Assembly (NCBI GenBank): GCA_963822765.1
Contig: CAWGJL010000016.1
Location: 79,158-143,157, forward strand
DNA: 64,000 nt
DNA from: an uncultured Actinomycetes bacterium
Lineage (GTDB): Bacteria > Actinomycetota > Actinomycetes > Streptosporangiales > Streptosporangiaceae
Direction of reading: 5' to 3'
The position numbers and the translations under genes are program-made. This document shows positions 8,272-22,389 of this stretch, one piece after another (positions within the stretch are counted from its first letter, which is position 1; every line of letters starts with the position of its first letter). The notes below the pieces were generated by a model. It worked only from the letters and a program-made list of their open reading frames with translations. It had not been told where the DNA came from and did no database searches.

Positions 8272-8340
8272 CGGTGCCCTCTCCTCGGTCCGGGTCCTCG
8301 CCGTAGGCCTGTGTCACCGCCGTAGGCTTTCCTTTTTTAT

Positions 8341-8360
8341 CCGAACGAACCGTGGTACCA
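8341..8360 (+). repeat. Copy 2 of conserved 20-nt motif (CCGAACGAACCGTGGTACCA)
   Basis: Preceded by CTTTCCTTTTTTAT. Lies 70-90 nt upstream of the GH63 start codon, on the opposite strand. Confidence 0.6.
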
Positions 8361-8516
8361 CCGCCCGGGTCCCCGCCCCGGCCACCTGGCGGGACCACCC
8401 TGGTCAGGTGCTAGGCGCCGGGGGCGAGCCGCGCCTCATCCCGATAGCGGCCTCGACGTCGTGCACGATATATCGGACGCTGACCGTGGCCATGGGTACG
8501 AAACTACCAGCGTCCC

Positions 8517-8536
8517 GGCCGCCTGATCAGGCGGCC
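8517..8536 (-). terminator. 20-bp perfect palindrome overlapping the SGNH lipase stop codon
   Basis: GGCCGCCTGATCAGGCGGCC. The stop codon (tca, 8527-8529) lies inside it. There is no strong U-tract. Confidence 0.35.
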
Positions 8537-9357
8537 CGGCTGAAGACGGGCAGGTAGCCGAGTTCCTGCCCGGCGGCGGTGGGGTGGTAGGACGAGCTGA
8601 TCGCGAAGATGTCCACCGAGTGCAGCCAGCTGCCGGAGTCGCAGATCTCGTGCCCGGAGAACTGCCCGCGGACGTCGGCGAACGTGTCGTGATTGGCTGC
8701 CGCGGCGGCCTGCAGGGCGTTGTCGAGGTCGTCGGCGCCGTGGTTGAGTGCGGTGCGGTCCTTGGTGCTCAGCCCGATGCACGTGCTGGACTTGGACAGG
8801 TCGTACAGGTCCGGGTAGCCGAGCACGACGACCGCCGCCGACGGCGCGTCGGCCCTGATCGTGGTCAGGGTCTTGGCCAGCAGGGCCGGCAGCTGACTGG
8901 CGACGAACGCCTCGGCCTTCGCCACCGCGTTCAGGCAGGTGCTGGTCGAGGAGAGCACGCAGGTCTCCATCACGCTGGAGAAGCCCGCGTCGTTGCCGCC
9001 GATCGTGATGCTGACCAGCGTGGTGCTCGTGCTCAGCGCCGACACCTGGCTGTTGATGACGTCGGCCGTGGTCGCGCCCGCGCACGCCACCGAGGTAAAG
9101 GCGGCGGGGGAGTTGGCCGCGGCCCATTGCTCCGGATAGGCGTTTGTACTGCGATCGCAGCTTCCGCTGGACGAGATGTAATCACCGGCACCGAGTCCGG
9201 AGCTGTAGGAATCGCCGAGCGCCACGTAATTGACCGTGGTTGCCGCCCTGGCCGCGGTCGCCGTGACCAGGGCAGCCGAGGCCGCGCCAGCCACAACCGC
9301 CGCGCTGAGAACAATCCGGAAAGTACGCGCGAATTCACCCACGGTTACTTGTACCAC
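8527..9357 (-). CDS. Secreted SGNH/GDSL-family lipase/esterase
   Basis: Signal-like N-terminus, block I ALGDSYSSG, block III GGND, C-terminal catalytic SYHPT. Cys pairs typical of Streptomyces-type SGNH lipases. Confidence 0.9.
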   Translation of the reverse strand: MVQVTVGEFARTFRIVLSAAVVAGAASAALVTATAARAATTVNYVALGDSYSSGLGAGDYISSSGSCDRSTNAYPEQWAAANSPAAFTSVACAGATTADVINSQVSALSTSTTLVSITIGGNDAGFSSVMETCVLSSTSTCLNAVAKAEAFVASQLPALLAKTLTTIRADAPSAAVVVLGYPDLYDLSKSSTCIGLSTKDRTALNHGADDLDNALQAAAAANHDTFADVRGQFSGHEICDSGSWLHSVDIFAISSSYHPTAAGQELGYLPVFSRAA

Positions 9358-9431
9358 GAGCCGGCCGGCAGATCAATATTCAACCATCGCGGCCCAGGCC
9401 GGCGTCCCTGGCCAGCTCGTCCCGGTCAGGC

Positions 9432-10283
9432 TCAGCCTCCATCAGCGCCTCTCAGCATCTCGAGCAGTTCGTCAACGCCCCGCACGCGCAGGTGCGGCCG
9501 CCGCGACACGGGCAGCGTGTCGTAGGCGGCCGCGGCCCCCAGCCCGGTTTGCACGGCGATGGCCAGCGACCGGCCCCGGTGCGCCATCGGCACCTCGAGC
9601 TGCGGGTCGTCGCCCACCACGGCCAGCCGGGCCGGGCTGGCCCCGAGCCGCTCCGCCGCGCTGCGCAGCGCGTCCAGCGACGGCTTGCCCACGACCCGCA
9701 CCGCGCACCCGGTCAGCGAGGTGATCATGGCCGAGATGGCCCGGGAGGTGCCGAGCGCCCGGCCGCCGTCCACCGCGAAGAACGGTGTCTGCGAGGCGCT
9801 GTACAGCGTGGCGCCGTCCCACACCGCGTGGCAGGCCGCCTCGAGCGCGGGCATGGTGAACTCGGGGAACCAGCCGGCCAGCACCGCGTCCGCCGCCGTC
9901 CCGACGGCAGGCGGCACCACGTCGAAGCCGGCCTCGGCCAACGGCGAAGTGAGCCCGGGTCCGCCCAGCACCATGACCCGCTCGTGCCCCGCGCGGCGCA
10001 GCACCCGGACCGCGCTGCTGGCCGGCGTCATCATCGCCTCGTCGGGCAGGCCGAAGCCGATCTCCCGCATGGTCCCGGCCAGCCGGGCGGGCGTCCGCGT
10101 GGTCCCGTTGGTGAACACCACGAACGGCAGGCCGCGCCCCGCCACCCAGCTGATGATCTCCACCGCGCCCGGCAGCGGCCGCAGCCCCCGGCCTCCGCGG
10201 TCGCCGAGCACCAGCGTGCCGTCCATGTCGAACACGAAGCCCCGCGCGTGCCGCAGCCTGGCCAGCGGATCATCAACGCGCAT
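9432..10283 (-). CDS. HAD-IIA family hydrolase (NagD-like phosphatase)
   Basis: Motif I FVFDMDGTL, motif II VFTNGT, GKP, motif IV VGDD. The ATG at 10283 overlaps the upstream stop by 11 nt. The longer ORF to 10481 is a shadow. Confidence 0.8.
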   Translation of the reverse strand: MRVDDPLARLRHARGFVFDMDGTLVLGDRGGRGLRPLPGAVEIISWVAGRGLPFVVFTNGTTRTPARLAGTMREIGFGLPDEAMMTPASSAVRVLRRAGHERVMVLGGPGLTSPLAEAGFDVVPPAVGTAADAVLAGWFPEFTMPALEAACHAVWDGATLYSASQTPFFAVDGGRALGTSRAISAMITSLTGCAVRVVGKPSLDALRSAAERLGASPARLAVVGDDPQLEVPMAHRGRSLAIAVQTGLGAAAAYDTLPVSRRPHLRVRGVDELLEMLRGADGG

Positions 10284-11757
10284 GGCCGGGCCCCCGCAGC
10301 TCCAGCCGGAAGCCGGGCTTGTCCACCACCAGCCGCCCCGCCGGCGGCCGGGAGCCGAGCTCGCGCAGCAGCCGCAGGACCGGCTGCACCTCCGGGTGGT
10401 AGTGCCGGGCGGCGGGCGCGGCGGCCAGCATCGCGTCGACCTCCTCGCCCGGCATCCCGAACCGCAGCAGCAGTTCCTCATCGGTGATCCCGCGCGGCAG
10501 CCGCTGCCGCAGCTCGGCCACGGACGCCGGCGGCGGCTCGGCGGCCAGCTCGCGGGCCCGCGGCCGGTCCAGGATGCGGTCGAGCACCCACGGCTCGACG
10601 TCGGCCGTCGGCTTGCCGAAGCTGCCCAGCACGTACCTGATCACCTGGTCCGGAACCACCTCGTACCGGTTTTCGCTGACCACGTTGGCCAGTGCCTGCC
10701 CCATCACCATCTGCGGGAACGGCGTGACCATGATCGGGTAGCCGAGCTCGGCCCGGACCTGGGTCACCTCCTCGATGACCGCCTCGAACCGGTCCTCCAG
10801 CCCGATCTCGGCCAGCTGCCGCCGCAGTGTGGTCAGCACGCCGCCCGCAAGCTGGTGCCGGGCGAACGCCGCGTCGAACGGCCGGGGCTGCCCGGACGGC
10901 AGCGTTTCGGCGGCCGCGAGCCGGTCGAAGTACCGGGCCGCGCGGGCCAGCAGCCGGTCGTCCACGTTCACCGTGTGTCCCAGCTCGCGCAGGTTCGCCA
11001 CCGTGCGTTCGGCGTCGGGCAGCGAAGACCCGTCGGCCAGCGCCCCGCAGGCCACCTGCAGCACCTCCACGCCCAGGTCCGGCGCGGCCAGGTAGACCAG
11101 CGGGGACAGCCCGATCGTGCAGTGCGCGTGCAGCTCCAGCGGCTTGCCGGCCAGCCGCGCCCGCACCGCGGGGATCAGCGTGCGGGCCCGCTCCGGGGTC
11201 AGCAGCCCGGCCGGGTCCTTGATGTAGGCGCGGTCGATGTCCCGCGACGCGGCCGCCTGCCCGGCGATCCCGGCGTAGAACGCGTCGTCGTGGACGGCCG
11301 AGATCGTGTACGTCAGCGCCGCGATGATCTCGGTCCCGCCGGCCTGGCGGATCATCCGCGCGGTGGCCAGCACCGCGCTCATGTCGTGCGTCGGATCGAG
11401 CACCACGAACCGCGAGATCCCGGCCGCGACCAGCCGCTGGTAGACCAGCCGCATCACGTCCGGATGGGCCCGCTCCCAGGAGATGAAGCGGAACCCGGTC
11501 CCGATGAACTGCAGCGGCGTGTCCGGCATCGCGGCCCGGGTGAGCCGGATCCGGTGCCACGGATCCTCCCGGTGGTTCCGCACCGCCACCCCCATGGCCG
11601 TACTCGAGCAGAAGTCCAGCGCCCGGAACCCCACCCGGTTCAGCACCGGCGCGATCTGGGCGATGTGCGCCGTCCGCAGCCCGGTAGCACTCCACAAACT
11701 CTGGTTCCCGTCCCGCAACGACACGTCCACCAGCTGTACCTCACCCACCACCTCCAC
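10273..11757 (-). CDS. Pyruvate carboxylase subunit B / oxaloacetate decarboxylase alpha-type carboxyltransferase (5S, HMGL-like) without a BCCP domain
   Basis: DVSLRDGNQS, IKDPAGLL (carbamyl-Lys motif), ELHAHCTIG, then a PYC_OADA-like C-terminal region. No biotinyl domain at the C-terminus. Confidence 0.85.
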   Translation of the reverse strand: MEVVGEVQLVDVSLRDGNQSLWSATGLRTAHIAQIAPVLNRVGFRALDFCSSTAMGVAVRNHREDPWHRIRLTRAAMPDTPLQFIGTGFRFISWERAHPDVMRLVYQRLVAAGISRFVVLDPTHDMSAVLATARMIRQAGGTEIIAALTYTISAVHDDAFYAGIAGQAAASRDIDRAYIKDPAGLLTPERARTLIPAVRARLAGKPLELHAHCTIGLSPLVYLAAPDLGVEVLQVACGALADGSSLPDAERTVANLRELGHTVNVDDRLLARAARYFDRLAAAETLPSGQPRPFDAAFARHQLAGGVLTTLRRQLAEIGLEDRFEAVIEEVTQVRAELGYPIMVTPFPQMVMGQALANVVSENRYEVVPDQVIRYVLGSFGKPTADVEPWVLDRILDRPRARELAAEPPPASVAELRQRLPRGITDEELLLRFGMPGEEVDAMLAAAPAARHYHPEVQPVLRLLRELGSRPPAGRLVVDKPGFRLELRGPGHAR

Positions 11758-13132
11758 CCCCCTCAGTCCAACCCCGCTCCACCCCAGCCCCGCCCCGCCC
11801 CAGCCAGCGCCCCAGGTACCCCGCGTCCACCCCGCCCGCCGTAAACTCCTGGTCGTCGACCATGCTCGATAGCATCGGCAAGGTGGTCGCTATCCCGCTC
11901 ACCTGGCACCGGGCCAGCGCACCGCGCAGCCGGGCCAGCGCCTGCGCCCGGTCCGCGCCGCTGACCACGAGCTTGGCCAGCAGGCTGTCGTACTGCGGCG
12001 GCACGGCCGAACCCGCCTGGATGTGCGTGTCGACCCGGATGCCAGGTCCGGCCGGGAACACCGCGCTGGTCACGGTCCCTGGACTGGGCCGGAAAGCCTC
12101 CGCCGGGTCTTCGGCGTTGATCCGGCACTCGATCGCGTGGCCGCGGACGGCCACGCCGGCCTGGGATAGCCTCAGTCCGCGCCCTTCCGCGATCGCGATC
12201 TGCTCCGCGACCAGGTCCAGGCCGGTGACCGCCTCGGTCACCGGGTGCTCGACCTGGATCCGGGCGTTCAGCTCGAGGAACCAGAATGCTCCCCGTCGCG
12301 TGTCGACCAGGAACTCGACGGTTCCCAGGCCCTGGTACTTCAGGTGCAGGCCGAGGGCGACCGCCGCCACCCGCATGCTGACCCGCAGCGTCTCGCCGAG
12401 CAGCGGCGCCGGCGCCTCCTCGACCAGTTTCTGGTACCGCCGCTGCACCGAGCAGTCCCGGTCACCGAGGTGGATCACGTTCCGGCCGTCGCCCAGCAAC
12501 TGCACCTCGACGTGCCGGGCGGGGGAGACGTAGCGCTCCAGGTACACCCGCGGGTCGCCGAACGCCGCCTGCGCCTCGGCGCTGGCCACCGCGACCGCCT
12601 GCTCGAGGTCGCCGGCGTCGCGGACCACCCGCAGCCCCCGCCCGCCGCCACCGCCGGCCGCCTTGACCAGTACCGGGTACCCGATCCGCCCCGCCAGCGC
12701 GCCCGCGCCGGCTGGCTCGGCCGGCCCGCCGGGCAGCACCGGCAGCCCCGCCGCGACCGCGTGCGCCCGGGCCGCCAGCTTGTCCCCGGCCGCCCCCAGC
12801 ACCTCGGCGCCGGGTCCGATGAACACGATCCCGGCCGCCTCGCAGGCCCGCGCCAGCCGCGGGTTCTCGGCCAGGAACCCGTATCCGGGATGGATCGCGT
12901 CCGCTCCCGCCGCGACCGCCGCGGCGGTGACCGCCTCGACGCTGAGGTAGGTCTCGGCCAGTCCTCCCGGCCCGATTCTGATCGTCCGGTCGGCCATCCT
13001 GGCCGGCACCGCGTTTGCGTCCGCGTCGGAGACCGCGAGCACGCTCTCGATGCCGAGCCGCCGGCAGGTCCTGATGACCCGGACGGCGATCTCGCCACGG
13101 TTGGCGATCAGCACCCGCCGGATGGCAGGCAC
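11741..13132 (-). CDS. Biotin carboxylase subunit
   Basis: RVLIANRGEIAVRVIRTC, ATP-grasp GGGGRGLRVV, EHPVTE, IECRINAEDP. The GTG start overlaps the BCCP stop by 1 nt. Confidence 0.9.
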   Translation of the reverse strand: MPAIRRVLIANRGEIAVRVIRTCRRLGIESVLAVSDADANAVPARMADRTIRIGPGGLAETYLSVEAVTAAAVAAGADAIHPGYGFLAENPRLARACEAAGIVFIGPGAEVLGAAGDKLAARAHAVAAGLPVLPGGPAEPAGAGALAGRIGYPVLVKAAGGGGGRGLRVVRDAGDLEQAVAVASAEAQAAFGDPRVYLERYVSPARHVEVQLLGDGRNVIHLGDRDCSVQRRYQKLVEEAPAPLLGETLRVSMRVAAVALGLHLKYQGLGTVEFLVDTRRGAFWFLELNARIQVEHPVTEAVTGLDLVAEQIAIAEGRGLRLSQAGVAVRGHAIECRINAEDPAEAFRPSPGTVTSAVFPAGPGIRVDTHIQAGSAVPPQYDSLLAKLVVSGADRAQALARLRGALARCQVSGIATTLPMLSSMVDDQEFTAGGVDAGYLGRWLGRGGAGVERGWTEGGGGGG

Positions 13133-13578
13133 TAGTCCGCCCTGATGCTCAGCAGCGTGGCCCCGCGGTCGGCGAACTCGCCGTTCCCCAGGCAGATCTC
13201 GGCCACCGTGCCGGCCGTGCCCGCGCTCACCGAGTTGAACAGCTTCATGGTCTCCACGATCCCGACCACCGTGTCCGCCCCGACCCGGCTCCCCACCTCC
13301 ACGAACGGTGCCGCCCCCGGCCGCGGCGCCCGGTAGAACGTCCCCGGCAGCGGCGCCCGCACCGCCACCAGCTCCGCACCCGTTGTTTGCAGCGCACCGC
13401 CTGGCGGAGCAACGTCGGCCACGGTCGGTACAACCCGGGTCTCAACGGCCTGCGTCCACCCGTCCGGAGTGCGCCGCAGTGTCAGCCGGAAGCGAGGGGT
13501 CTGCAGGTCGAGTTCGTCGTAGGGCAGCGAGTCCAGCAGCGCCAGGATGTCGGCGACGTCCTCATTGGTCAGGTCCAT
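13132..13578 (-). CDS. Biotin carboxyl carrier protein
   Basis: C-terminal biotinyl domain with VETMKLFNSV (E-x-MK-L biotin attachment motif). The ATG overlaps the upstream TAA by 1 nt. Confidence 0.8.
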   Translation of the reverse strand: MDLTNEDVADILALLDSLPYDELDLQTPRFRLTLRRTPDGWTQAVETRVVPTVADVAPPGGALQTTGAELVAVRAPLPGTFYRAPRPGAAPFVEVGSRVGADTVVGIVETMKLFNSVSAGTAGTVAEICLGNGEFADRGATLLSIRAD

Positions 13579-14657
13579 TACAGCGGTTTCTCCAGCCAGG
13601 CCAGGATGTGGTCGCTGGCGCGGGGTTTAGGGGTGGCCAGGGGAGGTCGCTCCCGGGCCGCCCAGACCGTCTCCGGACGGCTCTGCAGCACCCTGATCCG
13701 GTCCGCGGGGTCGCCGTGCATCGGCGGGCAGGCCGGGTCATCGCCGACCAGCGCCCACTCGATGTCCTGCGGCGCGCCGTAGTGCTCCTCGACTCGTTGC
13801 CCGATCGCGGCCAGCGCCCGGGCCTCGTCGTCGGTCAGGCAGGGCCGGCCGCGCAGCGCGACAGGCATGGCCGAGGCGCAGATCCCCGGTTCGTTCGGCC
13901 GAAAAGTATGCAGCCTGAGCTTGGCACCGGTCCGCCGCCCGGTGATCTCGCCGGTCACCTTGCTGACCGTGAAGGAGTCCGGGGTCACCTCCCCGGCCAC
14001 CAGGGCCGAGCCGAGGCCCCAGGTGCCCTCGATGGCTACCACCGAACGGTCGCCGGTGACCGGGCTGCGGGTGAACATCACCCCGGCCGCGCGCGGCCGG
14101 AGCATGCGCTGCACGACCACGCCCATGGCCAGCCCGTCCTCCGGCAGCCGCAGACGGCGCCGGTAGGCGACCGACTCGTCGTTGTACAGGCTGGCCCAGC
14201 ACTTGCGCACCGCGTCGAGCACCCCGGCCGCGCCGCGCACGGCCAGGAAGGTGTCCTGCAGCCCGGCGAAGCTGGCGCCCGCGGAATCCTCCATGGTCGC
14301 GCTCGACCGTACCGCCACCGGCACGGCCGGGCCGCCGGCGGACAACTCCTCGTACGCCTGCGTGACCTGGGCCGCCACCTCCGGCGGCGGCGCGGTAGCG
14401 ACGATCCGCGAGCGCGCCCCGGCCGCCACCCGCGCGATGGCCGGCACGTCCGAAGCAGACAGCGACGCGACCGAGCCCACCAGCGACCCGGACGGATCGA
14501 CCGTGGCCAGCATCTGCCCGAACGCCAGCGTCGTCACCACGTAACCAGGCGGGACCGGAATCCCCGCCCGGATCAACTCGCCCAGGCCCGCCGCCTTGCC
14601 GCCACCAAAACCCGCAGCACCCGCCTGCGCGAGGCCACGGACAAGCGGGCCATTCAC
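13578..14657 (-). CDS. PEP/pyruvate-binding (PPDK_N, ATP-grasp) domain protein, PpsB-like nucleotide-binding subunit
   Basis: GGKAAGLGELIRAGIPVPPGYVV, VRSSATMEDSAGASFAGLQDTF, AGVMFTRSPVTGD, IEGTWGLGSALVAGEVTPD. About 40 kDa. The GTG at 14657 overlaps the upstream TGA. Confidence 0.8.
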   Translation of the reverse strand: MNGPLVRGLAQAGAAGFGGGKAAGLGELIRAGIPVPPGYVVTTLAFGQMLATVDPSGSLVGSVASLSASDVPAIARVAAGARSRIVATAPPPEVAAQVTQAYEELSAGGPAVPVAVRSSATMEDSAGASFAGLQDTFLAVRGAAGVLDAVRKCWASLYNDESVAYRRRLRLPEDGLAMGVVVQRMLRPRAAGVMFTRSPVTGDRSVVAIEGTWGLGSALVAGEVTPDSFTVSKVTGEITGRRTGAKLRLHTFRPNEPGICASAMPVALRGRPCLTDDEARALAAIGQRVEEHYGAPQDIEWALVGDDPACPPMHGDPADRIRVLQSRPETVWAARERPPLATPKPRASDHILAWLEKPL

Positions 14658-16465
14658 CCGATGACCTGGACGGTCCCGCGGTCGCCGTCGACCCGTATCC
14701 GCTGGCCGGTGCTGATCCGCTTGGTCGCGTCGCCGGTGCCGACCACGGCCGGCATGCCGTACTCCCGGGCCACGATCGCCGCGTGCGACATCGACCCGCC
14801 GATGTCCGAGACCGCCGCCTTGATCTTGCCGAACACCGGCGCCCAGCTCGGCGCGGTCACCGGGCAGACCAGGATCTCCCCGTCGCGGATGTCGCCGATC
14901 TGGTTCACGTCGGTCAGCACCCGGGCGGGGCCCTCGACCACGCCGGACGACGCGCCGAACCCCCTGATCTCGTCCGAGGACGGTGAGAGCCACGCCTCGA
15001 TCCGCTCCTGGGTCACGCCCCACAGCATGCGCACGGCAGGATCGTTCAACGCGGTGGGGACCGGCCCGAGCGCGGGCGGCGGCGACCAGTCCCGCAGCGC
15101 AGCGAGCATCCGCTTGCGCGAGGCCACGATCGGCTTCCAGTAAGCGCCGCCCAGCGGCGGGCCGCCCGCGGCCCAGGCCAGCATGACGTCCGACAGCGCC
15201 TGGTCGACCTCGGTGTGGTGCAGCTGGAACACGTCCTCGGCCTCGGCCAGCACCCCGAACCGGGCCAGCAGCGCGCCGAACTCGCGGATCTTGCCGAAGA
15301 ACTGCGTGGTGAACCAGTGCTCGCAGTAGAACTTGTGGTCCTCCACGAACGGGAACACCCGGCGGCACAGTCCCAGCATCTGGTCGAACGCCGCCTGTTC
15401 TTCCGGGGAGGTCAGCAGCGAACGGTACGCGGAGGCAAGACGGTCCCGCTCGGCTCGCAGCTTCTCGGTGGGACGCGAAGCCAGTGAACCGGACCGCACC
15501 TGGGCCACGTACCGGGGCAGCGCCGTGAACGGGACGGTCAGGTCATCGGCCCAGCTGCGGTGGTGATGATAGAAACCGTCGCCGGTGGAGACGTTGAACC
15601 ACGGCTCGCGTGCTTCCTCGAAGGCCGCCAGCCACCGCTTACCGCCCTCGCCGCGCGAGGCCAGAGCGTCAAGCACGACCGACGGCGAGCAGCCCTCGGT
15701 GAACAGGTCGTCCACCCCGGTCTCGACCGCCAGCCGGGCCAGCCCCCGCAGCTCGTCGTCGGGCCGGTACATGATCACGTCGATGCCGGCCACCATCCGG
15801 GCCGCGGTCTGGTCGCTGATCTCCGGCCAGGCCTGCTTGCAGAACTGGAAGAACACCACGTACGCGCCGTAGCCCAGCATCAGCATCTCGGTGTGGTGGT
15901 GCCACATCTTGGAGAACAGGTCGATGCACTTGTGGAAGTTCTCCCGCACGAAATGGTTCTGGGCCACACCGCGGGCCTCGAAAACCACCGACGCGTCCTC
16001 AAACTCCGGCAGCGATGGCACGGTCACCGACTCGATCGAGTCGATCAGGGCCCGCATCCGGACCTTCCACCCCTCGTAAAGGGAATCCCAGTTCTCGTAG
16101 TAGTAGCCGGCCCGCTCGCCGAAGATCGCCGCGCGGCGCCCGATCTCGGCTTGGTCGAGAACCGGGATGGCGGTGATGTAGACCCGCCCGTTGACGATCC
16201 GGTGCTCGATGCCGAGCGTGGTCGGGAAGACGAACACCCGGGCCGTGTTCGCCCCGATCGCGCTGTACGGTACTTCCGCGGTGATCGTGTCGAAGGCCGG
16301 CATCGGCTCCGGGAAGTGCATGGAGTTGTAGAACCAGAAGCGCTGGTCGTCCTCGGGCTGGAAGCGGGTGAAGTACGGGTACATGGACCGCCAGTCCTGC
16401 GCCCCGGGCGCGTCGGCGATTTCCGACGGGAGCGGGAACCTCGCGGCATCGTCAGTCCCGTCCAT
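14654..16465 (-). CDS. PEP-utilising enzyme mobile (phospho-His) domain protein with a large unassigned N-terminal domain, PpsA-like
   Basis: C-terminal swivel domain GEILVCPVTAPSWAPVF...GGSMSHAAIVAREYGMPAVVG. About 500 aa N-terminal region has no motif I recognise. The ATG at 16465 is preceded by GAGGAGGGCGCG. Confidence 0.8.
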   Translation of the reverse strand: MDGTDDAARFPLPSEIADAPGAQDWRSMYPYFTRFQPEDDQRFWFYNSMHFPEPMPAFDTITAEVPYSAIGANTARVFVFPTTLGIEHRIVNGRVYITAIPVLDQAEIGRRAAIFGERAGYYYENWDSLYEGWKVRMRALIDSIESVTVPSLPEFEDASVVFEARGVAQNHFVRENFHKCIDLFSKMWHHHTEMLMLGYGAYVVFFQFCKQAWPEISDQTAARMVAGIDVIMYRPDDELRGLARLAVETGVDDLFTEGCSPSVVLDALASRGEGGKRWLAAFEEAREPWFNVSTGDGFYHHHRSWADDLTVPFTALPRYVAQVRSGSLASRPTEKLRAERDRLASAYRSLLTSPEEQAAFDQMLGLCRRVFPFVEDHKFYCEHWFTTQFFGKIREFGALLARFGVLAEAEDVFQLHHTEVDQALSDVMLAWAAGGPPLGGAYWKPIVASRKRMLAALRDWSPPPALGPVPTALNDPAVRMLWGVTQERIEAWLSPSSDEIRGFGASSGVVEGPARVLTDVNQIGDIRDGEILVCPVTAPSWAPVFGKIKAAVSDIGGSMSHAAIVAREYGMPAVVGTGDATKRISTGQRIRVDGDRGTVQVIG

Positions 16466-17159
16466 CGCGCCCTCCTCAGCCGGCCACGGCGACCGCGGCC
16501 ACCGCACACGCCCGCGCACCTCTGCGCAGGTCCGCACCGCCGAAGCTGCCATAGCCTGCCAGGCGGATCAATGGCGGATCCAACCATTTCGGTCCGCCCG
16601 ATCTTGGGCCATCCACCAAGGCGACGCCGGGCATGGAAAATGGACTAGTAGGCACGACGGTCAGGAGCGCAGCAGACATGCCCCGCAGCGGTAATGCTTC
16701 GGATTGGCAGGACCGCCTGGCCGCGCAACGCCAGGAAGCCGAGCAGCTGGCGGCGGGAACGCAGACAGCAGATAAGGGACCGGGAGAAGGCCCGCCAGCA
16801 GGAGCATCTCGAATGCGCGGCGCACCGGCCCCCGCTGGCTGCGGCATCTTCACGGCGACAGGCGCACTCGGCGCGACGTTGACGGCCTGGAAGTGGTGCT
16901 GGCGGGCGCGCGGCAGCGGGATGCGGCGGGGACCCCGGCGGCCGGTCACCGGGTGCTGTGCGCGGCAGCCGCCGCGGACGTAGGGCTCGCGTCCGAAGGA
17001 CGCGGCGAAGCTGCCGCCCCGCAACGGCGAGTCCCCCGATTGAACCCCGGCCGCCTACAGCGGGTCACCCTGGCCGCTCTCTCCCTCCGACTACTCGCGT
17101 CCCTTCCTCGCTGCTCCACAGCCCCGGCCGTCAGGCATGGCGCGCCGGAGGTGCGCCCT

Positions 17160-19400
17160 TGAAGCCGTAAAGAAAGTTGTAACAGTTCCTGTTCGGGCGG
17201 TTGTGATCAAGGTCATTTCTGGTCATGATGGCCGCATGGTTGCCGCAGCGGTCTTCTTCGTTCTCCTCGTTTTTTTACGGCGCGGTTCGTCACGGGTGGC
17301 AGAGGTTTGCTGATCGGGCGGCTCGCTGGCATCCTTGCGATTTACATCCTTCTGTGGCTGTTCATCGCGATATCGAGCCCGACTACCGCTTCCGGTCTCG
17401 CCCGGTTCTTCGCTGGTGGCGTATCCGGGGCCATTACAGGCCTGGTCCATTTTCTGAATGACGTGTTCGGATCACACTAACGACCTTCAATAGCGGGGGT
17501 TACTGGGCCTGGTCACCCCGCACGCGGTGTGCTATGCCGCAGGGCGCTCGACATCTGGCTCGCTTGATCCGCAGAAGCTTCCAAGGCTGCCGAGACTCCG
17601 CCGCATCTGGCCGCCCTGATTGACCCGGATGACCCCGATGGCCTTCGCGATGCCTACGGTTGGCGAAGCGACAAGCTGGAGGAACATCTGTTGACGGATG
17701 TCCAGTTCAGTATGCTTCGTCACCCTTTGTATCGCTCGGACCAGCATGGGCGTTATACAAATATATGCGTGGACAGTTCGGAAGACACACGATTTATCCT
17801 AATTCATGCCGGAATCAACTACTACGGGCAGAGCAACATTTGTCTGCTAGAAACAAAGGTCCTGACGGTCTCCCCATCGTTACCATATCGCAAGATTAAT
17901 CTGTCATACCTTCGGTTGGCTTACGCGTCTTACAGGCATTAACAGCCACATCAAGCGGAATGCGGCCAATGCCATCACCTATGCAGATTATTGATCTGCT
18001 GCGGAAATAGAAACTATGAGAGGGTTAAGTGTCGATTATCCTTATGAATCAAATATCATCACTAGCCCGCCTGTAGCTACCGATGACAACCAGGCGGTCA
18101 ATTGCCCTGATCCTGTCGCCCGTTGGCTTGTTGCTTATCTCTGCAGCCAGGCTAATCATCGTCGCGAACTTCAATACGACGACAGCCGTAACGATCGCCT
18201 CGTCCGGCGGATTCGTTAACACCCTGCTAGGCACGGTTATACCGTTGATCCCTGTCTTCATGCCTTACGTGGCGCTCCTTCTGCTGCTCACCCGGCACTT
18301 TCTCCTTAGCATAATGACCTTCATATTCGCGGCATTTATCTCTCCCACCTCTATAACGGCGGCCGAGGGTCTCCGTGTTGCAGAAGCATACTGGAATCGA
18401 ACGGTCGCCGTATTTCACAACTATCGAACAATACCCCTGGTAATTTTGATAATAATCTTTATCGCTGTTTGGATCTATAACAGAAGTTTTGTTGAAGGAT
18501 TGAGCATTATCGTCGTGATGGTTGCAGCACTTACGCTCGTGATCGCGATACCGAACCCATATTTTCCATTGCCGGTGCGCTTGGCGAGTAACAATGAACA
18601 TCATCTAGTCGCCCGCGTGTCCTCCGGGGCTTTCGGATACTCTGGGCTCGACATACTAGTGGCCCTGGGCATACTGGCTATTGTATTCATTGTATATACC
18701 GCCGCTACAGCGTCAAGCCCGGAGGTTGGGCTACTAGATGGCTTTTCCTGGCTGCTAACCTCCGTAGTGGCTCTGATCGCCGCCATTGCCTTCTTTCCGT
18801 ACCTTCATTTTATATATCCGGTTCCGCAAAATCGTGGTTACTATGCTGAAGCCGCACACGCGATGTGGTTGAACGCGGAACGGATCGAACTGGATACTCA
18901 CCTTGTCTATTATGGCTACGTTTTAACATCCGATGACCAGTGGTTTACCGTGTTGCTGGTCAACAGCAGACTTATTGCCTATCTTCCCGCCAATGAAATC
19001 GTTGGCAGGTCTGTCTGCCAGCCTGGGATGCAAGGTCAATCCAACCAGTCCCCGCCCCTAATCCCTTGGCTCTATCACCGACCTCGAAGCCTTCGGTCCT
19101 GTGCACGCGAGGACGAGATCGCGTTGATTACTGCATTTCTATCAAGCGGTCAGTCACTCAGAGCGATATCCTCAATAACACACACCGAGCCAGAACGCAT
19201 CATTTTTCTCACTAACCGACATCTTCATGAAAAGCTTTCTGCTGCGCTGCGCGCATACGAATGCAGGCATGATTGGGATGCGCCAACCCCTGTAGGGCAG
19301 CGCTTCTACTACTATCCAAGACTCGCTCCTTACTAAGAAGTTGATAGTTGTAAACCAACATGCCTCTGACACGGCAGCCGTAGATCGTGATCTGTTGGAG
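17160..19400. other. AT-rich (low-GC) islet, probable horizontally acquired DNA
   Basis: Abrupt compositional change against GC-saturated flanks. One long ORF only. An IS-like remnant lies directly to the right. Confidence 0.7.
18083..19336 (+). CDS. Orphan polytopic membrane protein (7-8 TM) with a hydrophilic C-terminal domain, no recognised family
   Basis: 417-aa ORF with an in-frame stop just upstream of the ATG. Hydrophobic segments such as IPLVILIIIFIAVWIY and GLDILVALGILAIVFIVY. Codon usage is AT-rich, unlike the host. Confidence 0.6.
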   Translation: MTTRRSIALILSPVGLLLISAARLIIVANFNTTTAVTIASSGGFVNTLLGTVIPLIPVFMPYVALLLLLTRHFLLSIMTFIFAAFISPTSITAAEGLRVAEAYWNRTVAVFHNYRTIPLVILIIIFIAVWIYNRSFVEGLSIIVVMVAALTLVIAIPNPYFPLPVRLASNNEHHLVARVSSGAFGYSGLDILVALGILAIVFIVYTAATASSPEVGLLDGFSWLLTSVVALIAAIAFFPYLHFIYPVPQNRGYYAEAAHAMWLNAERIELDTHLVYYGYVLTSDDQWFTVLLVNSRLIAYLPANEIVGRSVCQPGMQGQSNQSPPLIPWLYHRPRSLRSCAREDEIALITAFLSSGQSLRAISSITHTEPERIIFLTNRHLHEKLSAALRAYECRHDWDAPTPVGQRFYYYPRLAPY

Positions 19401-19862: not shown

Positions 19863-20232
19863 CAGCTACGACATCATCGACCTCACCGCCGACCCACCTC
19901 GCCTCGACAGAAAGTACGTGCGGGACGAGGCGCTGCAAGCCCGGCAGCTCACCGAGACGCTCGCCATCTTCGACGACGCGAAGGTCGACGGCGCCTTCGT
20001 CCACACGTTCATCCAGCCGCTCAACGAGTACAACGCCGACCCGAGGTTCGACTTCGACATGGCCAGCTACAGCCTGGTCAAGAGCTACGGGACCCGGATT
20101 GGCGGCCTGGCCGCGCAGTTCCCTGGCATCCCCCTGGGACCTGACCCGTCCGGTACGGCCTACCCCGGCCTGTCCTGGCAGCCCAAGGAGTCATTTCACG
20201 CCGTCGCCACCTACTACGACGAAAAGCCCTAG
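19863..20232 (+). pseudogene. 3' fragment of a disrupted gene (C-terminal about 120 aa, glycosidase-like hypothetical)
   Basis: High-GC3 frame reading YDIIDLTADPP...VDGAFVHTFIQPLNEYNADPRFDFDMASYSLVK...HAVATYYDEKP. It has no start and is fused in frame to the IS remnant. Confidence 0.4.
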
Positions 20233-20885
20233 GCCAGCCGCCGCTCGGCGGCCCACCGGGTCAGCTGGTGCCGCGACGACAGCTGCAGCTTGCGCAGCAC
20301 CGACGATACGTGCGACTCGACCGTCTTGACCGAGATGTACAGCTCGCGCGCGATCTCCTTGTACGTGTAGCCCTGCGCGATCAGCCGCAGCACCTCCCGC
20401 TCCCGCGAGGTCAGCTGGTCAAGCTCCGGATCGAACGACGGCTTGACCCCCGCCGGGGAAGAGTCAGCGGCGAACGCGTCCAGCACGAACCCGGCCAGCC
20501 GGTGCGAGAACACCGCGTCGCCCGCCGCCACCCGCTGGATCGCATCGGCCAGCTCAGCGGTGGAAATGGTCTTCGTCACGTACCCGCGCGCGCCCGCCCG
20601 GATCACCGCGATCACGTCCTCGGGCGCGTCCGACGCGGACAGCGCCAGGAAGCGAACGGACGGGAACAAAGGCTTGATCGCCTCGATCACGGCCTGCCCG
20701 CCGCCGCCCGGCAGGTGCACGTCGAGCAGCACCACCTCGGGCTGCACCGACGTGATCAGGTCGATCGCGGGCTGCACGTCGTCCGCCTCGCCGAGCACCT
20801 CGACCCGCCGGCCAAGCTCGGACCGCACCCCGGACCGGAACAGCCCGTGGTCATCCACCAGCACCACCCGCGGCGTGCCGCTCAC
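20229..20885 (-). CDS. NarL/LuxR-family two-component response regulator
   Basis: REC domain VVLVDDHGLFRSG and LLDVHLPGGGG. LuxR HTH LTSREREVLRLIAQGYTYKEIARELYISVKTVESHV. Confidence 0.9.
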   Translation of the reverse strand: MSGTPRVVLVDDHGLFRSGVRSELGRRVEVLGEADDVQPAIDLITSVQPEVVLLDVHLPGGGGQAVIEAIKPLFPSVRFLALSASDAPEDVIAVIRAGARGYVTKTISTAELADAIQRVAAGDAVFSHRLAGFVLDAFAADSSPAGVKPSFDPELDQLTSREREVLRLIAQGYTYKEIARELYISVKTVESHVSSVLRKLQLSSRHQLTRWAAERRLA

Positions 20886-22258: not shown

Positions 22259-22389
22259 CGCTCCCCGTACGCGCGCGTGGGTATAGGGACCAACCCTGAC
22301 CCGACCCCTACTCCGGCCGGAATGGATCAGGGTCGGATCAGGGATCATCCCCGATGCGCGGCCCCGGCCCGGGGACGCAATCTAGGGCC

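What the first reader, a model, noticed from the sequence alone, without database searches (positions are those of the whole stretch)
9432..16465. Six-gene coupled operon joining a split phenylphosphate-synthase/PEP-synthase-like kinase to a pyruvate-carboxylase-type biotin carboxylase and a HAD phosphatase
SEEN:
- Six minus-strand CDSs have overlapping or abutting stop/start codons: GTGA at 14654-14657, TAATG at 13576-13580, TAGTG at 13130-13134, a 17-nt overlap at 11741-11757 and an 11-nt overlap at 10273-10283. One transcript is very likely.
- Gene 1 is a 603-aa protein with about 500 aa of unassigned N-terminus and a C-terminal swivelling phospho-His domain (GGSMSHAAIVAREYG).
- Gene 2 is a 359-aa PPDK_N/ATP-grasp nucleotide-binding protein.
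- Gene 3 is BCCP (ETMKL) and gene 4 is biotin carboxylase.
- Gene 5 is a 5S/PycB-type carboxyltransferase (LRDGNQS, IKDPAGLL, ELHAHCT) with no BCCP of its own.
- Gene 6 is a HAD-IIA hydrolase (DMDGTL).

ESTABLISHED:
- The split into a 70-kDa His-domain protein and a 40-kDa ATP-binding protein is the architecture of phenylphosphate synthase PpsA/PpsB of Thauera aromatica. The fused form is seen in rifampicin phosphotransferase.
- In the phenol pathway the partner carboxylase is UbiD-type, not biotin dependent.
- PycB/OadA-type CT domains carboxylate the carbon adjacent to a 2-oxo group.

INFERENCE: this may be a phosphorylation-coupled carboxylation route for an unidentified ketone, enol or phenolic substrate. 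The order could be phosphorylate then carboxylate, or carboxylate then trap as an enol phosphate, with the HAD enzyme removing the phosphate. I know of no characterised system with this composition.
Basis: partly seen in the sequence, partly recalled or inferred. Interest (0 to 1): 0.75.

Follow-up and report, generated by a model that had tools for sequence, protein, structure and literature searches.

The report
Known acetovanillone/hydroxyacetophenone kinase–carboxylase–phosphatase operon
The six genes are a real, tightly coupled operon, but it is not a new system: it is an uncharacterised actinomycete copy of the Hpe/Acv pathway module, described in 2022, that lets bacteria break down lignin-derived hydroxyphenyl methyl ketones by phosphorylating, carboxylating and then dephosphorylating them.

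Summary
Six minus-strand genes (9432-16465) have overlapping or abutting stop and start codons. They encode a 603-aa swivel-His protein, a PPDK_N ATP-grasp protein, BCCP, biotin carboxylase, a PycB-like carboxyltransferase without BCCP, and a HAD-IIA hydrolase.

Its claim that no characterised system has this composition is wrong.
- Gene content and order match acvABCDEF of Sphingobium SYK-6 and hpeHICBAD of Rhodococcus rhodochrous GD02. Both were characterised biochemically and genetically from 2022 to 2026.
- The best solved-structure match of gene 2 is HpeI (PDB 9GOJ).
- Gene 1 sits inside the kinase clade that is linked to this carboxylase (43 of 47 judgeable loci). It lies apart from the phenylphosphate-synthase and cresol-kinase clades.
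- The carboxyltransferase carries the Hpe-type signature (RDGNQSLW, and TGFRFISW in place of RGQNLLGY) and not the pyruvate-type one.
- A model of gene 1 matches rifampin phosphotransferase over about 600 alignment columns.

The window lacks the downstream genes (hpeEF or vceAB) and any AcvR-type regulator. The substrate is inferred, not shown.

Verdict: a new member of a known kind, of low interest.

The parts
14654..16465 (-). G1, HpeH/AcvA-like alpha subunit of a two-component phenol dikinase. It has an RPH-like substrate-binding domain (about residues 1-495) and a C-terminal swivel phospho-His domain (GGSMSH561AAIV).
   Evidence: - Pfam PEP-utilizers at residues 527-597; NCBIfam PRK08296, 800 bits.
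- AF2 model with pLDDT 91; Foldseek top hits are RPH 5FBU/5FBT/5HV1, E 1e-18, TMq 0.63.
- 48% identical to the Rhodococcus HpeH proxy and 55% to a sphingomonad AcvA-like protein.
- Falls inside the carboxyltransferase-linked clade of the tree.
- Catalytic His motif conserved.
13578..14657 (-). G2, HpeI/AcvB-like beta subunit (ATP-grasp, PPDK_N). It presents ATP to the swivel His of G1.
   Evidence: - Pfam PPDK_N, E 2e-90.
- Best PDB hit by sequence is 9GOJ, the HpeI of R. rhodochrous GD02: E 6e-63, 39% identity over 322 aa.
- GTGA overlap with the G1 stop.
13132..13578 (-). G3, HpeC/AcvC-like biotin carboxyl carrier protein (biotinyl-Lys in ETMKLF).
   Evidence: - Pfam Biotin_lipoyl; NCBIfam BCCP models.
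- The E-x-MK-[LM] motif is conserved in 53 cluster homologues.
- TAATG junction with G2.
11741..13132 (-). G4, HpeB/AcvD-like biotin carboxylase.
   Evidence: - Biotin_carb_N, CPSase_L_D2 and Biotin_carb_C domains.
- Glycine-rich loop KAAGGGGGRG and the ELNARIQVEHPVTE motif are intact.
- 51% identical to the Rhodococcus HpeB proxy and 62% to a sphingomonad homologue.
10273..11757 (-). G5, HpeA/AcvE-like carboxyltransferase. It has the PycB/5S fold, no BCCP domain, and Hpe-type substrate-site motifs.
   Evidence: - PYC_OADA and HMGL-like domains.
- PDB hits: PycB 5KS8, OadA 2NX9, 5S 1S3H.
- Signature RDGNQSLW, TGFRFISW, KDP and VTPFPQ is shared with all 46 cluster-linked carboxyltransferases aligned from the loci, including the GD02-like L084. 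It differs from the RDxHQSL, RGQNLLGY, KDM and VTP[TS]SQ of pyruvate-type carboxyltransferases.
- Metal and carbamyl-Lys ligands (D, K, HxH) are kept.
9432..10283 (-). G6, HpeD/AcvF-like HAD-IIA (NagD-like) phosphatase.
   Evidence: - Hydrolase_6, Hydrolase_like and HAD-SF-IIA hits.
- HAD motifs DMDGT, TNGT, GKPS and GDD are intact and conserved in cluster homologues.
- 37% identical to the Rhodococcus HpeD proxy and 45% to sphingomonad and Rhizobium homologues.

Best explanation
The operon is an orthologue of the Hpe/Acv 'upper' module for catabolism of 4-hydroxyphenyl methyl ketones (4-hydroxyacetophenone, acetovanillone, perhaps acetosyringone).

Proposed steps:
1. G2 binds ATP and pyrophosphorylates His561 on the swivel domain of G1. 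The gamma-phosphate is hydrolysed, and the swivel domain carries the beta-phosphate to the RPH-like substrate domain. There the ring 4-OH of the ketone is phosphorylated (ATP -> AMP + Pi + aryl phosphate).
2. G4 carboxylates the biotin on G3 (ATP -> ADP). G5 transfers the carboxyl group to the methyl carbon next to the ketone of the 4-phospho-aryl ketone, giving a 4-phosphophenyl-beta-ketopropionate.
3. G6 hydrolyses the aryl phosphate, releasing 4-hydroxy(3-methoxy)phenyl-beta-ketopropionate.

[quoted passage not shown] These are not encoded in this window.

Shown here: gene content, gene order, coupling, clade membership, the active-site signature and intact catalytic motifs. Inferred from characterised homologues: the chemistry, the step order and the substrate.
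For: - The order kinase-alpha, kinase-beta, BCCP, BC, CT, HAD is identical to acvABCDEF and hpeHICBAD (the subunit masses show HpeB is the BC and HpeA the CT).
[quoted passage not shown] HpeCBA carboxylates only the phospho-forms, using 1 ATP -> ADP. HpeD dephosphorylates the carboxylated product.
- HpeHI is a dikinase with an essential swivel His and an RPH-like fold.
- Six-gene modules from GD02, SYK-6 and Actinomadura macra all convert HAP, AV and acetosyringone (AS) to hydroxyphenyl-beta-ketopropionates.
- The best solved-structure hit of G2 is HpeI, 9GOJ.
- L084, a Rhodococcus plasmid whose HpeI is 97.5% identical to 9GOJ, carries hpeHICBADEF. The window proteins are 48/39/51/51/46/37% identical to it. 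That is as close as sphingomonad acv-like proteins are to it: 46/43/54/51/47/35%.
- In the NJ tree, G1 is nested in a clade whose members are followed by the carboxylase. The Pps clade (Azoarcus, with ppcBDAG) and the Cre clade (Rhodococcus, with a P450) are separate and lack it.
- Census: 43 of 47 loci with a G1 homologue at >=50% identity and enough flank carry the carboxyltransferase, against 1 of 15 below 50%.
- The carboxyltransferase signature is shared with Hpe-type and not with pyruvate-type enzymes.
- All catalytic motifs are intact.
- The G1 model matches RPH.
Against: - No biochemical or expression data exist for this locus.
- Identity to the characterised proteins is only 37-51% (GD02 proxy). 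No sequence of SYK-6 or A. macra itself could be compared.
- By identity alone, G1 is almost as close to PpsA (46%) as to HpeH (48%). In the midpoint-rooted NJ tree, which has no bootstrap, the Rhodococcus HpeH branch lies outside the main carboxylase-linked clade. The assignment therefore rests on context and on the carboxyltransferase signature, not on kinase identity.
- The window holds no hpeE/hpeF-like or other evident downstream gene, no AcvR-type regulator, and no vanAB, pobA or pca genes.
- Higuchi et al. proposed a different step order, with dephosphorylation before carboxylation.
Confidence: 0.82

Rival explanations
1. The enzyme chemistry is the same (phenol phosphorylation, biotin-dependent carboxylation of a side-chain methyl ketone, dephosphorylation) but the physiological substrate or fate differs. 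The substrate could be another phenolic ketone from plant or microbial metabolites. The beta-keto acid could feed something other than the vanillate/4-hydroxybenzoate route.
For: - The window and its closest relatives (L001 at 87%, L003 at 92%) lack hpeEF next to the operon and have variable downstream genes.
- There is no AcvR-type regulator.
- The kinase is known to set pathway specificity and to accept several phenols.
- Identity to the characterised enzymes is only 37-55%.
Against: - All three tested modules, from very distant hosts, take HAP and AV, and the window's proteins lie within the sequence span they define.
- SYK-6 also lacks clustered downstream genes and still grows on AV.
- Slightly more distant relatives (L002, L009, L017, L034) have the hpeE-like ligase directly upstream of the same six genes.
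Confidence: 0.12
2. The pathway is the same but the step order is the one proposed for SYK-6: the HAD enzyme dephosphorylates the aryl phosphate first, generating a phenolate or enolate-like anion, and the biotin enzyme then carboxylates that.
For: - AcvF dephosphorylates phospho-AV and phospho-AS.
- Crude AcvCDE converted phospho-AV to the beta-keto acid, and the authors proposed this order.
Against: - Purified HpeCBA carboxylates phospho-AV and phospho-HAP directly and does not touch the unphosphorylated ketones.
- HpeD is much more active on the carboxylated phospho-product than on phospho-AV.
- The SYK-6 carboxylase was not purified, and host phosphatases were present.
Confidence: 0.05
3. 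This is an ordinary multi-subunit pyruvate (or 2-oxoglutarate) carboxylase that merely sits next to a PEP-synthase-like or rifamycin-type kinase and a housekeeping phosphatase, with no functional coupling.
For: The G5 fold and its best PDB hits are PycB, OadA and the 5S subunit. NCBIfam gives partial hits to PycB and PEP-synthase models, all far below their cut-offs.
Against: - G5 lacks the RGQNLLGY and RDxHQS motifs of pyruvate-type carboxyltransferases and has no fused BCCP.
- The adjacency with the kinase is conserved across phyla.
- G1 has no PEP/pyruvate-binding TIM-barrel domain, and the kinase is split, unlike RPH.
- The translational coupling of all six genes argues against an accidental neighbourhood.
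Confidence: 0.01

Closest known systems
acvABCDEF of Sphingobium (lignivorans) sp. SYK-6 (Higuchi et al. 2022)
   Same: - The same six proteins in the same order: kinase alpha, kinase beta, BCCP, BC, CT, HAD.
- It is a single operon.
- There are no downstream CoA-ligase or hydrolase genes in the cluster.
- Sphingomonad acv-like loci are 54-55% (G1), 47% (G2), 62% (G4), 52-56% (G5) and 41-45% (G6) identical to the window proteins.
   Different: - SYK-6 has an AraC-type activator, AcvR, immediately upstream. The window has none; instead a low-GC island lies upstream.
- The host is an alphaproteobacterium, against a high-GC actinomycete here.
- The SYK-6 sequence itself was not available for direct comparison.
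hpeHICBADEF of Rhodococcus rhodochrous GD02 (Dexter et al. 2022, 2025) and of Actinomadura macra NBRC 14102 (Lalande et al. 2026)
   Same: - The first six genes are the same and in the same order, with overlapping stop and start codons.
- The best PDB match of G2 is HpeI (9GOJ).
- The carboxyltransferase signature motifs are shared.
- The swivel His motif and the RPH-like fold of the alpha subunit are shared.
   Different: - hpeE (AcsA-like CoA synthetase) and hpeF (CouO-like amidohydrolase) follow hpeD in GD02, A. macra, Rhodococcus JS3073 and Rhizobium pRlBT01c. They are absent from the window.
- Identities to the GD02 proxy are only 37-51%.
- The window has Ser, not Cys, before the catalytic His, as in PpsA and CreH.
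Phenylphosphate synthase PpsAB(C) with UbiD-type phenylphosphate carboxylase (Thauera, Azoarcus)
   Same: A homologous split dikinase (G1 is 46% identical and G2 39% identical to the Azoarcus KH32C proteins). The logic is also the same: phosphorylate the phenol before carboxylation.
   Different: - The partner there is a UbiD/UbiX-type carboxylase acting on the ring, plus a CBS protein PpsC. There is no biotin enzyme and no NagD-like HAD.
- It forms a separate clade in the tree.
CreHI 4-methylphenol kinase of Corynebacterium/Rhodococcus
   Same: A homologous two-component phenol dikinase used in aerobic catabolism, with a later dephosphorylation step.
   Different: - It is linked to a P450, ferredoxin, reductase, an HD-domain phosphohydrolase and dehydrogenases, not to a carboxylase.
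- Identity to G1 is only 40%.
- It forms a separate clade.
Rifampin phosphotransferase (RPH)
   Same: Same overall fold and swivel-His dikinase mechanism. The G1 model matches 5FBU, 5FBT and 5HV1 over about 600 alignment columns.
   Different: - RPH is a single fused polypeptide.
- Sequence identity is 18%.
- It is a resistance enzyme, not a catabolic one.

Membership tests
Hpe/Acv hydroxyphenylethanone kinase-carboxylase-phosphatase module | Two-component dikinase: an alpha subunit with an RPH-like substrate-binding domain plus a C-terminal swivel domain carrying the catalytic His | tested here: met
   - PEP-utilizers domain at residues 527-597 and a full-length PRK08296 hit.
- GGSMSH561AAIV is conserved.
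- AF2 model, pLDDT 91, matches RPH at E 1e-18 and TMq 0.63.
Hpe/Acv hydroxyphenylethanone kinase-carboxylase-phosphatase module | A separate ATP-grasp beta subunit homologous to HpeI | tested here: met
   PPDK_N at E 2e-90. The top PDB hit is 9GOJ (HpeI of GD02), E 6e-63, 39% identity.
Hpe/Acv hydroxyphenylethanone kinase-carboxylase-phosphatase module | A three-component biotin carboxylase: free BCCP, BC, and a PycB-fold carboxyltransferase without a BCCP domain | tested here: met
   Pfam and NCBIfam results for G3, G4 and G5. The biotinyl-Lys and BC motifs are intact.
Hpe/Acv hydroxyphenylethanone kinase-carboxylase-phosphatase module | Carboxyltransferase of the Hpe/Acv/Xcc clade, not the pyruvate type. 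The substrate-site signature used here was derived here. | tested here: met
   RDGNQSLW, TGFRFISW, KDP and VTPFPQ are shared with all 46 cluster-linked carboxyltransferases aligned from the loci, including the GD02-like L084. PycB, OadA and 5S have RDxHQSL, RGQNLLGY, KDM and VTP[TS]SQ.
Hpe/Acv hydroxyphenylethanone kinase-carboxylase-phosphatase module | A NagD-like HAD-IIA phosphatase as the last gene of the module | tested here: met
   Hydrolase_6 and HAD-SF-IIA hits. The four HAD motifs are intact.
Hpe/Acv hydroxyphenylethanone kinase-carboxylase-phosphatase module | Gene order alpha-beta-BCCP-BC-CT-HAD in one translationally coupled unit | tested here: met
   ORFs and junctions. The same order is reported in the papers and is seen in 23 fully colinear GTDB loci, plus L084 and L085.
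Hpe/Acv hydroxyphenylethanone kinase-carboxylase-phosphatase module | The kinase alpha subunit falls in the carboxylase-linked clade, distinct from the Pps and Cre clades | tested here: met
   NJ tree of 85 homologues and census of 43/47 against 1/15. Caveats: NJ method, midpoint rooting, no bootstrap, and the Rhodococcus HpeH proxy branches near the root.
Hpe/Acv hydroxyphenylethanone kinase-carboxylase-phosphatase module | Activity on 4-hydroxyacetophenone or acetovanillone, and induction by them | not testable with these tools
   This needs enzyme assays, RNA-seq or genetics. It is known only for the GD02, SYK-6 and A. macra modules.
Hpe/Acv hydroxyphenylethanone kinase-carboxylase-phosphatase module | Clustered downstream enzymes (hpeE CoA synthetase, hpeF beta-ketoacyl-CoA hydrolase). 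This is typical of the Hpe form and absent from the Acv form, so it is not strictly defining. | tested here: not met
   tblastn with hpeE/F-like proteins from L002 and L085 finds nothing in the 64-kb window.
Phenylphosphate synthase / phenylphosphate carboxylase (Pps/Ppc) | Kinase pair followed by the PpsC (CBS) protein and UbiD/UbiX-type ppc genes | tested here: not met
   The reference locus L086 shows that layout. The window has biotin-carboxylase genes instead, and G1 lies outside the Pps clade.
Two-subunit pyruvate carboxylase (PycA/PycB) / oxaloacetate decarboxylase alpha | Carboxyltransferase with the RGQNLLGY and RDxHQS pyruvate-site motifs and a fused C-terminal biotinyl domain | tested here: not met
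   The motifs are replaced and there is no Biotin_lipoyl domain in G5. All PycB and OadA NCBIfam scores are far below their cut-offs.
Rifamycin phosphotransferase (RPH) | A single polypeptide of about 865 aa fusing the ATP-grasp, rifampin-binding and swivel domains | tested here: not met
   The protein is split into G1 and G2. NCBIfam RIF_Ptrans_rph scores are 114 and 269 bits against a cut-off of 999. Structural identity is 18%.

The most novel reading that the evidence does not exclude
The lineage to which the window belongs is probably Streptosporangiales-like soil actinomycetes. It keeps only the six-gene core, with no hpeEF, no AcvR and variable flanks. It may use the module on a different phenolic methyl ketone, or as a scavenging or detoxifying device whose beta-keto-acid product enters an undescribed route.

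Separately, the census suggests the module is far more widespread in uncultured soil bacteria than published counts indicate. It also suggests that a variant without a biotin carboxylase gene exists.
Probability: 0.1. Interest if true: 0.4.

Novelty: new member of a known kind. Interest (0 to 1): 0.15.

Why it matters
Practically, this is another and quite divergent actinomycete variant of a pathway that is actively mined for lignin valorisation (conversion of acetovanillone, 4-hydroxyacetophenone and acetosyringone). It could be screened for better kinetics or substrate range.

Conceptually it adds little, because the phosphorylate, carboxylate, dephosphorylate logic and all six components are already characterised.

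Two by-products may help annotation. These genes are still labelled 'PEP-utilizing enzyme', 'hypothetical protein' or 'pyruvate, water dikinase' in databases.
- The first is a simple sequence signature that separates Hpe-type from pyruvate-type carboxyltransferases.
- The second is the evidence that the cluster is common in soil MAGs across at least four phyla.

Tried and rejected
- **Distant-homologue scan:** The search for related loci with a 28-sequence alignment failed because it had no conserved stretch. A 9-sequence alignment worked.
- **Source record:** an exact-sequence look-up of G1 found nothing, so the organism is not identified. The closest GTDB representative is a Streptosporangiaceae MAG at 86%.
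- **Solved structure of the G1 N-terminal domain:** a sequence search found only swivel-domain hits. A model plus Foldseek was needed to show the RPH relationship.
- **Downstream and regulatory genes in the window:** tblastn with hpeE/F-like, ECH, MFS, flavodoxin, methyltransferase, ADH and AcvR-like queries found nothing. Pfam on 30 other window genes found no vanAB, pobA or pca genes.
- **Promoter and terminator scan of 8200-18200:** not above shuffled expectation. The G6-GDSL intergenic fold has a z-score of -0.2. Operon boundaries are therefore set only by gene spacing and by comparison with relatives.
- **Upstream low-GC island:** its ORFs have no Pfam, NCBIfam or PADLOC hit.
- **SYK-6 and A. 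macra sequences:** A Rhodococcus plasmid whose HpeI is 97.5% identical to 9GOJ, together with sphingomonad loci, served as proxies.
- **Rejected readings:** ordinary pyruvate carboxylase, phenylphosphate synthase, the cresol kinase system and RPH (see the membership tests).

Full report
**Observation.** The window is high-GC DNA (about 71%). Between 9432 and 16465 on the minus strand lie six ORFs with high third-position GC. The G1 start at 16465 follows GAGGAGG. The G5 start could be 6 or 9 nt further in, which is immaterial.

Pfam and NCBIfam confirm each annotation:
- G1 (603 aa) has only a C-terminal PEP-utilizers swivel domain in Pfam. It matches NCBIfam PRK08296 ('hypothetical protein') over its full length at 800 bits.
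- G2 is PPDK_N.
- G3 is a BCCP.
- G4 is a biotin carboxylase.
- G5 is a PYC_OADA/HMGL-like carboxyltransferase with no biotinyl domain.
- G6 is a HAD-IIA hydrolase.

**What it is.** A full-text search for the combination of phenylphosphate-synthase-like kinase and biotin carboxylase immediately returned two 2022 papers.
- Higuchi et al. described acvABCDEF of Sphingobium sp. SYK-6: kinase alpha, kinase beta, BCCP, BC, CT and a NagD-like HAD, in that order. It is one operon. Every gene is essential for growth on acetovanillone and acetosyringone, and the six genes are sufficient to confer carboxylation on a heterologous host.
- Dexter et al. described hpeHICBADEF of Rhodococcus rhodochrous GD02. 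HpeHI phosphorylates the phenolic OH of acetovanillone and 4-hydroxyacetophenone. Purified HpeCBA carboxylates only the phosphorylated ketones, using one ATP to ADP. HpeD dephosphorylates the carboxylated product.
- A 2025 paper showed that HpeHI is a swivel-His dikinase producing AMP. HpeI (PDB 9GOJ) is the ATP-grasp part, and HpeH corresponds to the rifampin-binding plus swivel domains of rifampin phosphotransferase.
[quoted passage not shown] All three convert HAP, AV and AS to hydroxyphenyl-beta-ketopropionates.

The window's gene content and order are therefore those of a characterised module. One discrepancy was noted in passing. Table 1 of Dexter 2022 swaps the BC and CT labels of hpeB and hpeA. 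The subunit masses and Higuchi's assignments show HpeB is the BC and HpeA the CT, so the order matches the window.

**Tests of membership.**

1. *Direct comparison with a characterised protein.* The best solved-structure hit of G2 is 9GOJ, the HpeI of GD02 (E 6e-63; 39% identity over 322 aa).

2. *A proxy for the whole GD02 cluster.* A tblastn search of plasmids found Rhodococcus sp. JS3073 plasmid NZ_CP113952 (L084). Its HpeI is 97.5% identical to the 9GOJ sequence. It carries the eight genes in hpeHICBADEF order, with predicted subunit masses within about 0.2 kDa of those reported for HpeA, HpeB and HpeC of GD02. The window proteins are 48, 39, 51, 51, 46 and 37% identical to it. A sphingomonad acv-like locus (L031) is 46, 43, 54, 51, 47 and 35% identical to it. 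The window is 55, 47, 39, 62, 56 and 45% identical to that sphingomonad locus. The window's module therefore lies within the sequence span of functionally validated modules.

3. *Neighbourhood census.* I scanned one genome per GTDB species with an alignment of G1 homologues, which gave 79 loci, and then ran tblastn with G1-G6.
   - 62 loci have a G1 homologue at >=50% identity, and 47 of those have enough downstream sequence to judge. Of these 47, 43 carry the carboxyltransferase.
   - 23 loci are fully colinear for all six genes.
   - 11 loci are colinear but lack a BC gene.
   - The hosts include Actinomycetota (Streptomyces, Blastococcus, Actinomycetospora, Streptosporangiaceae, Solirubrobacterales, Gaiellales), Acidobacteriota, and Alpha-, Beta- and Gammaproteobacteria.
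   - 15 loci below 50% identity have enough flank, and only one carries the carboxyltransferase. These are Azoarcus, Rhodocyclaceae, Deltaproteobacteria and Chloroflexota, which carry the kinase pair alone.

4. *Reference clusters from annotated plasmids.* Azoarcus KH32C has PpsA, PpsB, a CBS protein and ppcBDAG with UbiD/UbiX genes. Rhodococcus oxybenzonivorans has a cre-type cluster with a P450, ferredoxin, reductase, an HD-domain protein and an aldehyde dehydrogenase. Rhizobium leguminosarum pRlBT01c has an HTH regulator followed by the six genes, then an acetoacetate-CoA ligase and an amidohydrolase, which is the full eight-gene Hpe form.

5. *Phylogeny.* In an NJ tree of 85 G1 homologues, the window's protein is nested deep in the clade whose members are followed by the carboxylase. 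The Pps and Cre references fall in separate clades that lack it. Caveats: the tree is NJ, midpoint-rooted and not bootstrapped. The Rhodococcus HpeH proxy branches near the root and not inside the main clade. G1 is almost as similar to PpsA (46%) as to HpeH (48%).

6. *Carboxyltransferase signature.* This settles the question of whether G5 is just a pyruvate carboxylase. I aligned 46 cluster-linked carboxyltransferases from the loci with the PycB (5KS8), OadA (2NX9) and transcarboxylase 5S (1S3H) sequences recovered from the PDB alignments.

| Feature | Pyruvate-type enzymes | Window G5 and cluster CTs, including the GD02-like one |
|---|---|---|
| Motif 1 | RD[GA]HQSL | RDGNQS[LC]W |
| Motif 2 | LLRGQNLLGY | [TSP]G[FLM]RF[IM][SA]W |
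| Motif 3 | KDM | KDP |
| Motif 4 | VTP[TS]SQ | VTP[FVLY][PSA]Q |
| Metal and carbamyl-Lys ligands (Asp, Lys, HxH) | present | retained |

   From my own knowledge of pyruvate carboxylase structures, the RGQN arginine binds the substrate carboxylate. Its loss fits a methyl-ketone substrate that has no carboxylate. That last step is inference.

7. *Catalytic motifs.* All are intact: His561 in GGSMSHAAIV (G1), the biotinyl Lys in ETMKLF (G3), the glycine-rich loop and ELNARIQVEHPVTE (G4), and the HAD motifs DMDGT, TNGT, GKPS and GDD (G6).

8. *The 'unassigned' N-terminal 500 residues of G1.* An AlphaFold2 model (pLDDT 91, pTM 0.90) matches rifampin phosphotransferase structures 5FBU, 5FBT and 5HV1 over about 600 alignment columns (E 1e-18, TMq 0.63, 18% identity). 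All other hits cover only the swivel domain. This reproduces what was reported for HpeH.

**Context.**
- Downstream of G6 lie a GDSL lipase gene (8527-9357), 74 nt away, and glycoside hydrolase genes.
- Upstream lies a stretch of about 2.3 kb at 44-60% GC (about 17100-19400). It holds a 417-aa orphan ORF. Beyond it are a LuxR-type response regulator and a PspC-domain histidine kinase.
- Close metagenomic relatives keep the kinase-regulator pair and the six genes (L001 at 87%, L003 at 92%). The slot between them holds different cargo: a methyltransferase in one, and an FtsK/SpoIIIE-bearing island in the other. Their downstream genes also differ. The conserved unit is therefore exactly the six genes.
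- Slightly more distant relatives (L002 at 79%, Streptomyces L017, Blastococcus L009) have an hpeE-like acetoacetyl-CoA-synthetase gene directly upstream, and some have the hpeF-like amidohydrolase.
- The window has neither of these, and no AcvR-like regulator. No vanillate, 4-hydroxybenzoate or protocatechuate genes were seen among 30 other window genes scanned with Pfam. SYK-6 also keeps its downstream enzymes (VceA, VceB) elsewhere, so this does not argue against membership. It does leave the fate of the product in this organism unknown.

**Mechanism (best explanation, confidence about 0.8).**
1. G2 binds ATP. His561 of G1 is pyrophosphorylated, the gamma-phosphate is lost, and the swivel domain delivers the beta-phosphate to the ring 4-OH of the hydroxyphenyl methyl ketone bound in the RPH-like domain.
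2. G4 carboxylates biotinyl-G3.
3. G5 transfers CO2 to the methyl carbon alpha to the ketone of the 4-phospho-aryl ketone.
4. G6 removes the aryl phosphate, giving the 4-hydroxyphenyl-beta-ketopropionate.

Gene content, clade, signature and intact active sites are shown here. Chemistry, step order and substrate are inferred from the GD02, SYK-6 and A. macra work.

Rivals:
- The same chemistry acts on another phenolic ketone, or the product has another fate (about 0.12).
- The SYK-6-style order applies, with dephosphorylation first (about 0.05). This is contradicted by purified HpeCBA.
- The carboxylase is an ordinary pyruvate carboxylase sitting beside an unrelated kinase (about 0.01). This is contradicted by the signature and the conserved adjacency.

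**Novelty and score.** This locus is an uncharacterised, fairly divergent actinomycete member of it. It is a new member of a known kind, with interest about 0.15.

Minor points of possible use:
- The carboxyltransferase signature could improve annotation.
- The cluster is abundant in soil metagenomes. 3510 proteins matched among the 8000 candidates scored, and all of the best 120 are >=71% identical to G1. At least 43 GTDB species carry the linked cluster. Published censuses report '4 additional genomes' and '25 genomes' with colocalised genes.
- A recurrent variant without a BC gene exists.

Noticed in passing
window 17100-19400 (ORF 18083-19336, + strand): A low-GC island (44-60% GC against about 71% for the genome) lies between the operon start and the LuxR-type response regulator. 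It holds a 417-aa ORF with no Pfam, NCBIfam or PADLOC hit. In close relatives the same slot holds other cargo: an FtsK/SpoIIIE island in L003 and a Methyltransf_19 gene in L001. This suggests an insertion hot spot.
   Followed up: partly
L015, L023, L024, L030, L036, L041, L042, L048, L050, L056, L079 (GTDB loci): Eleven otherwise colinear clusters run kinase alpha, kinase beta, BCCP, CT, HAD with no biotin carboxylase gene between BCCP and CT. An example is Croceibacterium soli, where the gap between BCCP and CT is only about 200 nt. This may be a BC-less variant that borrows the housekeeping AccC. I did not see it mentioned in the papers I read.
   Followed up: partly
L038 and L080 (Solirubrobacterales MAGs): The alpha-subunit gene stands alone. 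A beta-subunit, CT and HAD set lies 5-8 kb away on the opposite strand, and no BCCP or BC hit is found in the locus. This is a rearranged form of the cluster.
   Followed up: no
L084 (Rhodococcus sp. JS3073 plasmid NZ_CP113952, 321-332 kb); L085 (Rhizobium leguminosarum pRlBT01c): Complete eight-gene hpeHICBADEF clusters sit on a 1.39-Mb Rhodococcus plasmid (HpeI 97.5% identical to PDB 9GOJ; the record is unannotated) and on a mobilisable 653-kb Rhizobium plasmid. In the Rhizobium record the CT is annotated 'hypothetical protein'. This fits horizontal spread of the pathway.
   Followed up: partly
Literature: PMC9618137, Table 1: Table 1 labels hpeB as the carboxyltransferase and hpeA as the biotin carboxylase. 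The subunit masses in the same paper (HpeA 57.4 kDa, HpeB 49.3 kDa), Higuchi's assignments (apkA is CT, apkB is BC) and the Rhodococcus proxy ORFs (BC 49.5 kDa, CT 57.5 kDa) indicate the labels are swapped.
   Followed up: yes
window 20229-22381 (- strand), also L001 and L003: A PspC-domain histidine kinase and a LuxR-type response regulator are conserved upstream of the operon in the window and its two closest relatives. Further PspC and DUF1707 genes lie beyond them in the relatives. There is no evidence that they regulate the operon.
   Followed up: no
window 8527-9357 (- strand): A GDSL lipase/acylhydrolase gene lies 74 nt downstream of G6 on the same strand. It is not conserved next to the operon in relatives. 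No convincing terminator was found between the two genes, so read-through co-transcription cannot be excluded.
   Followed up: partly
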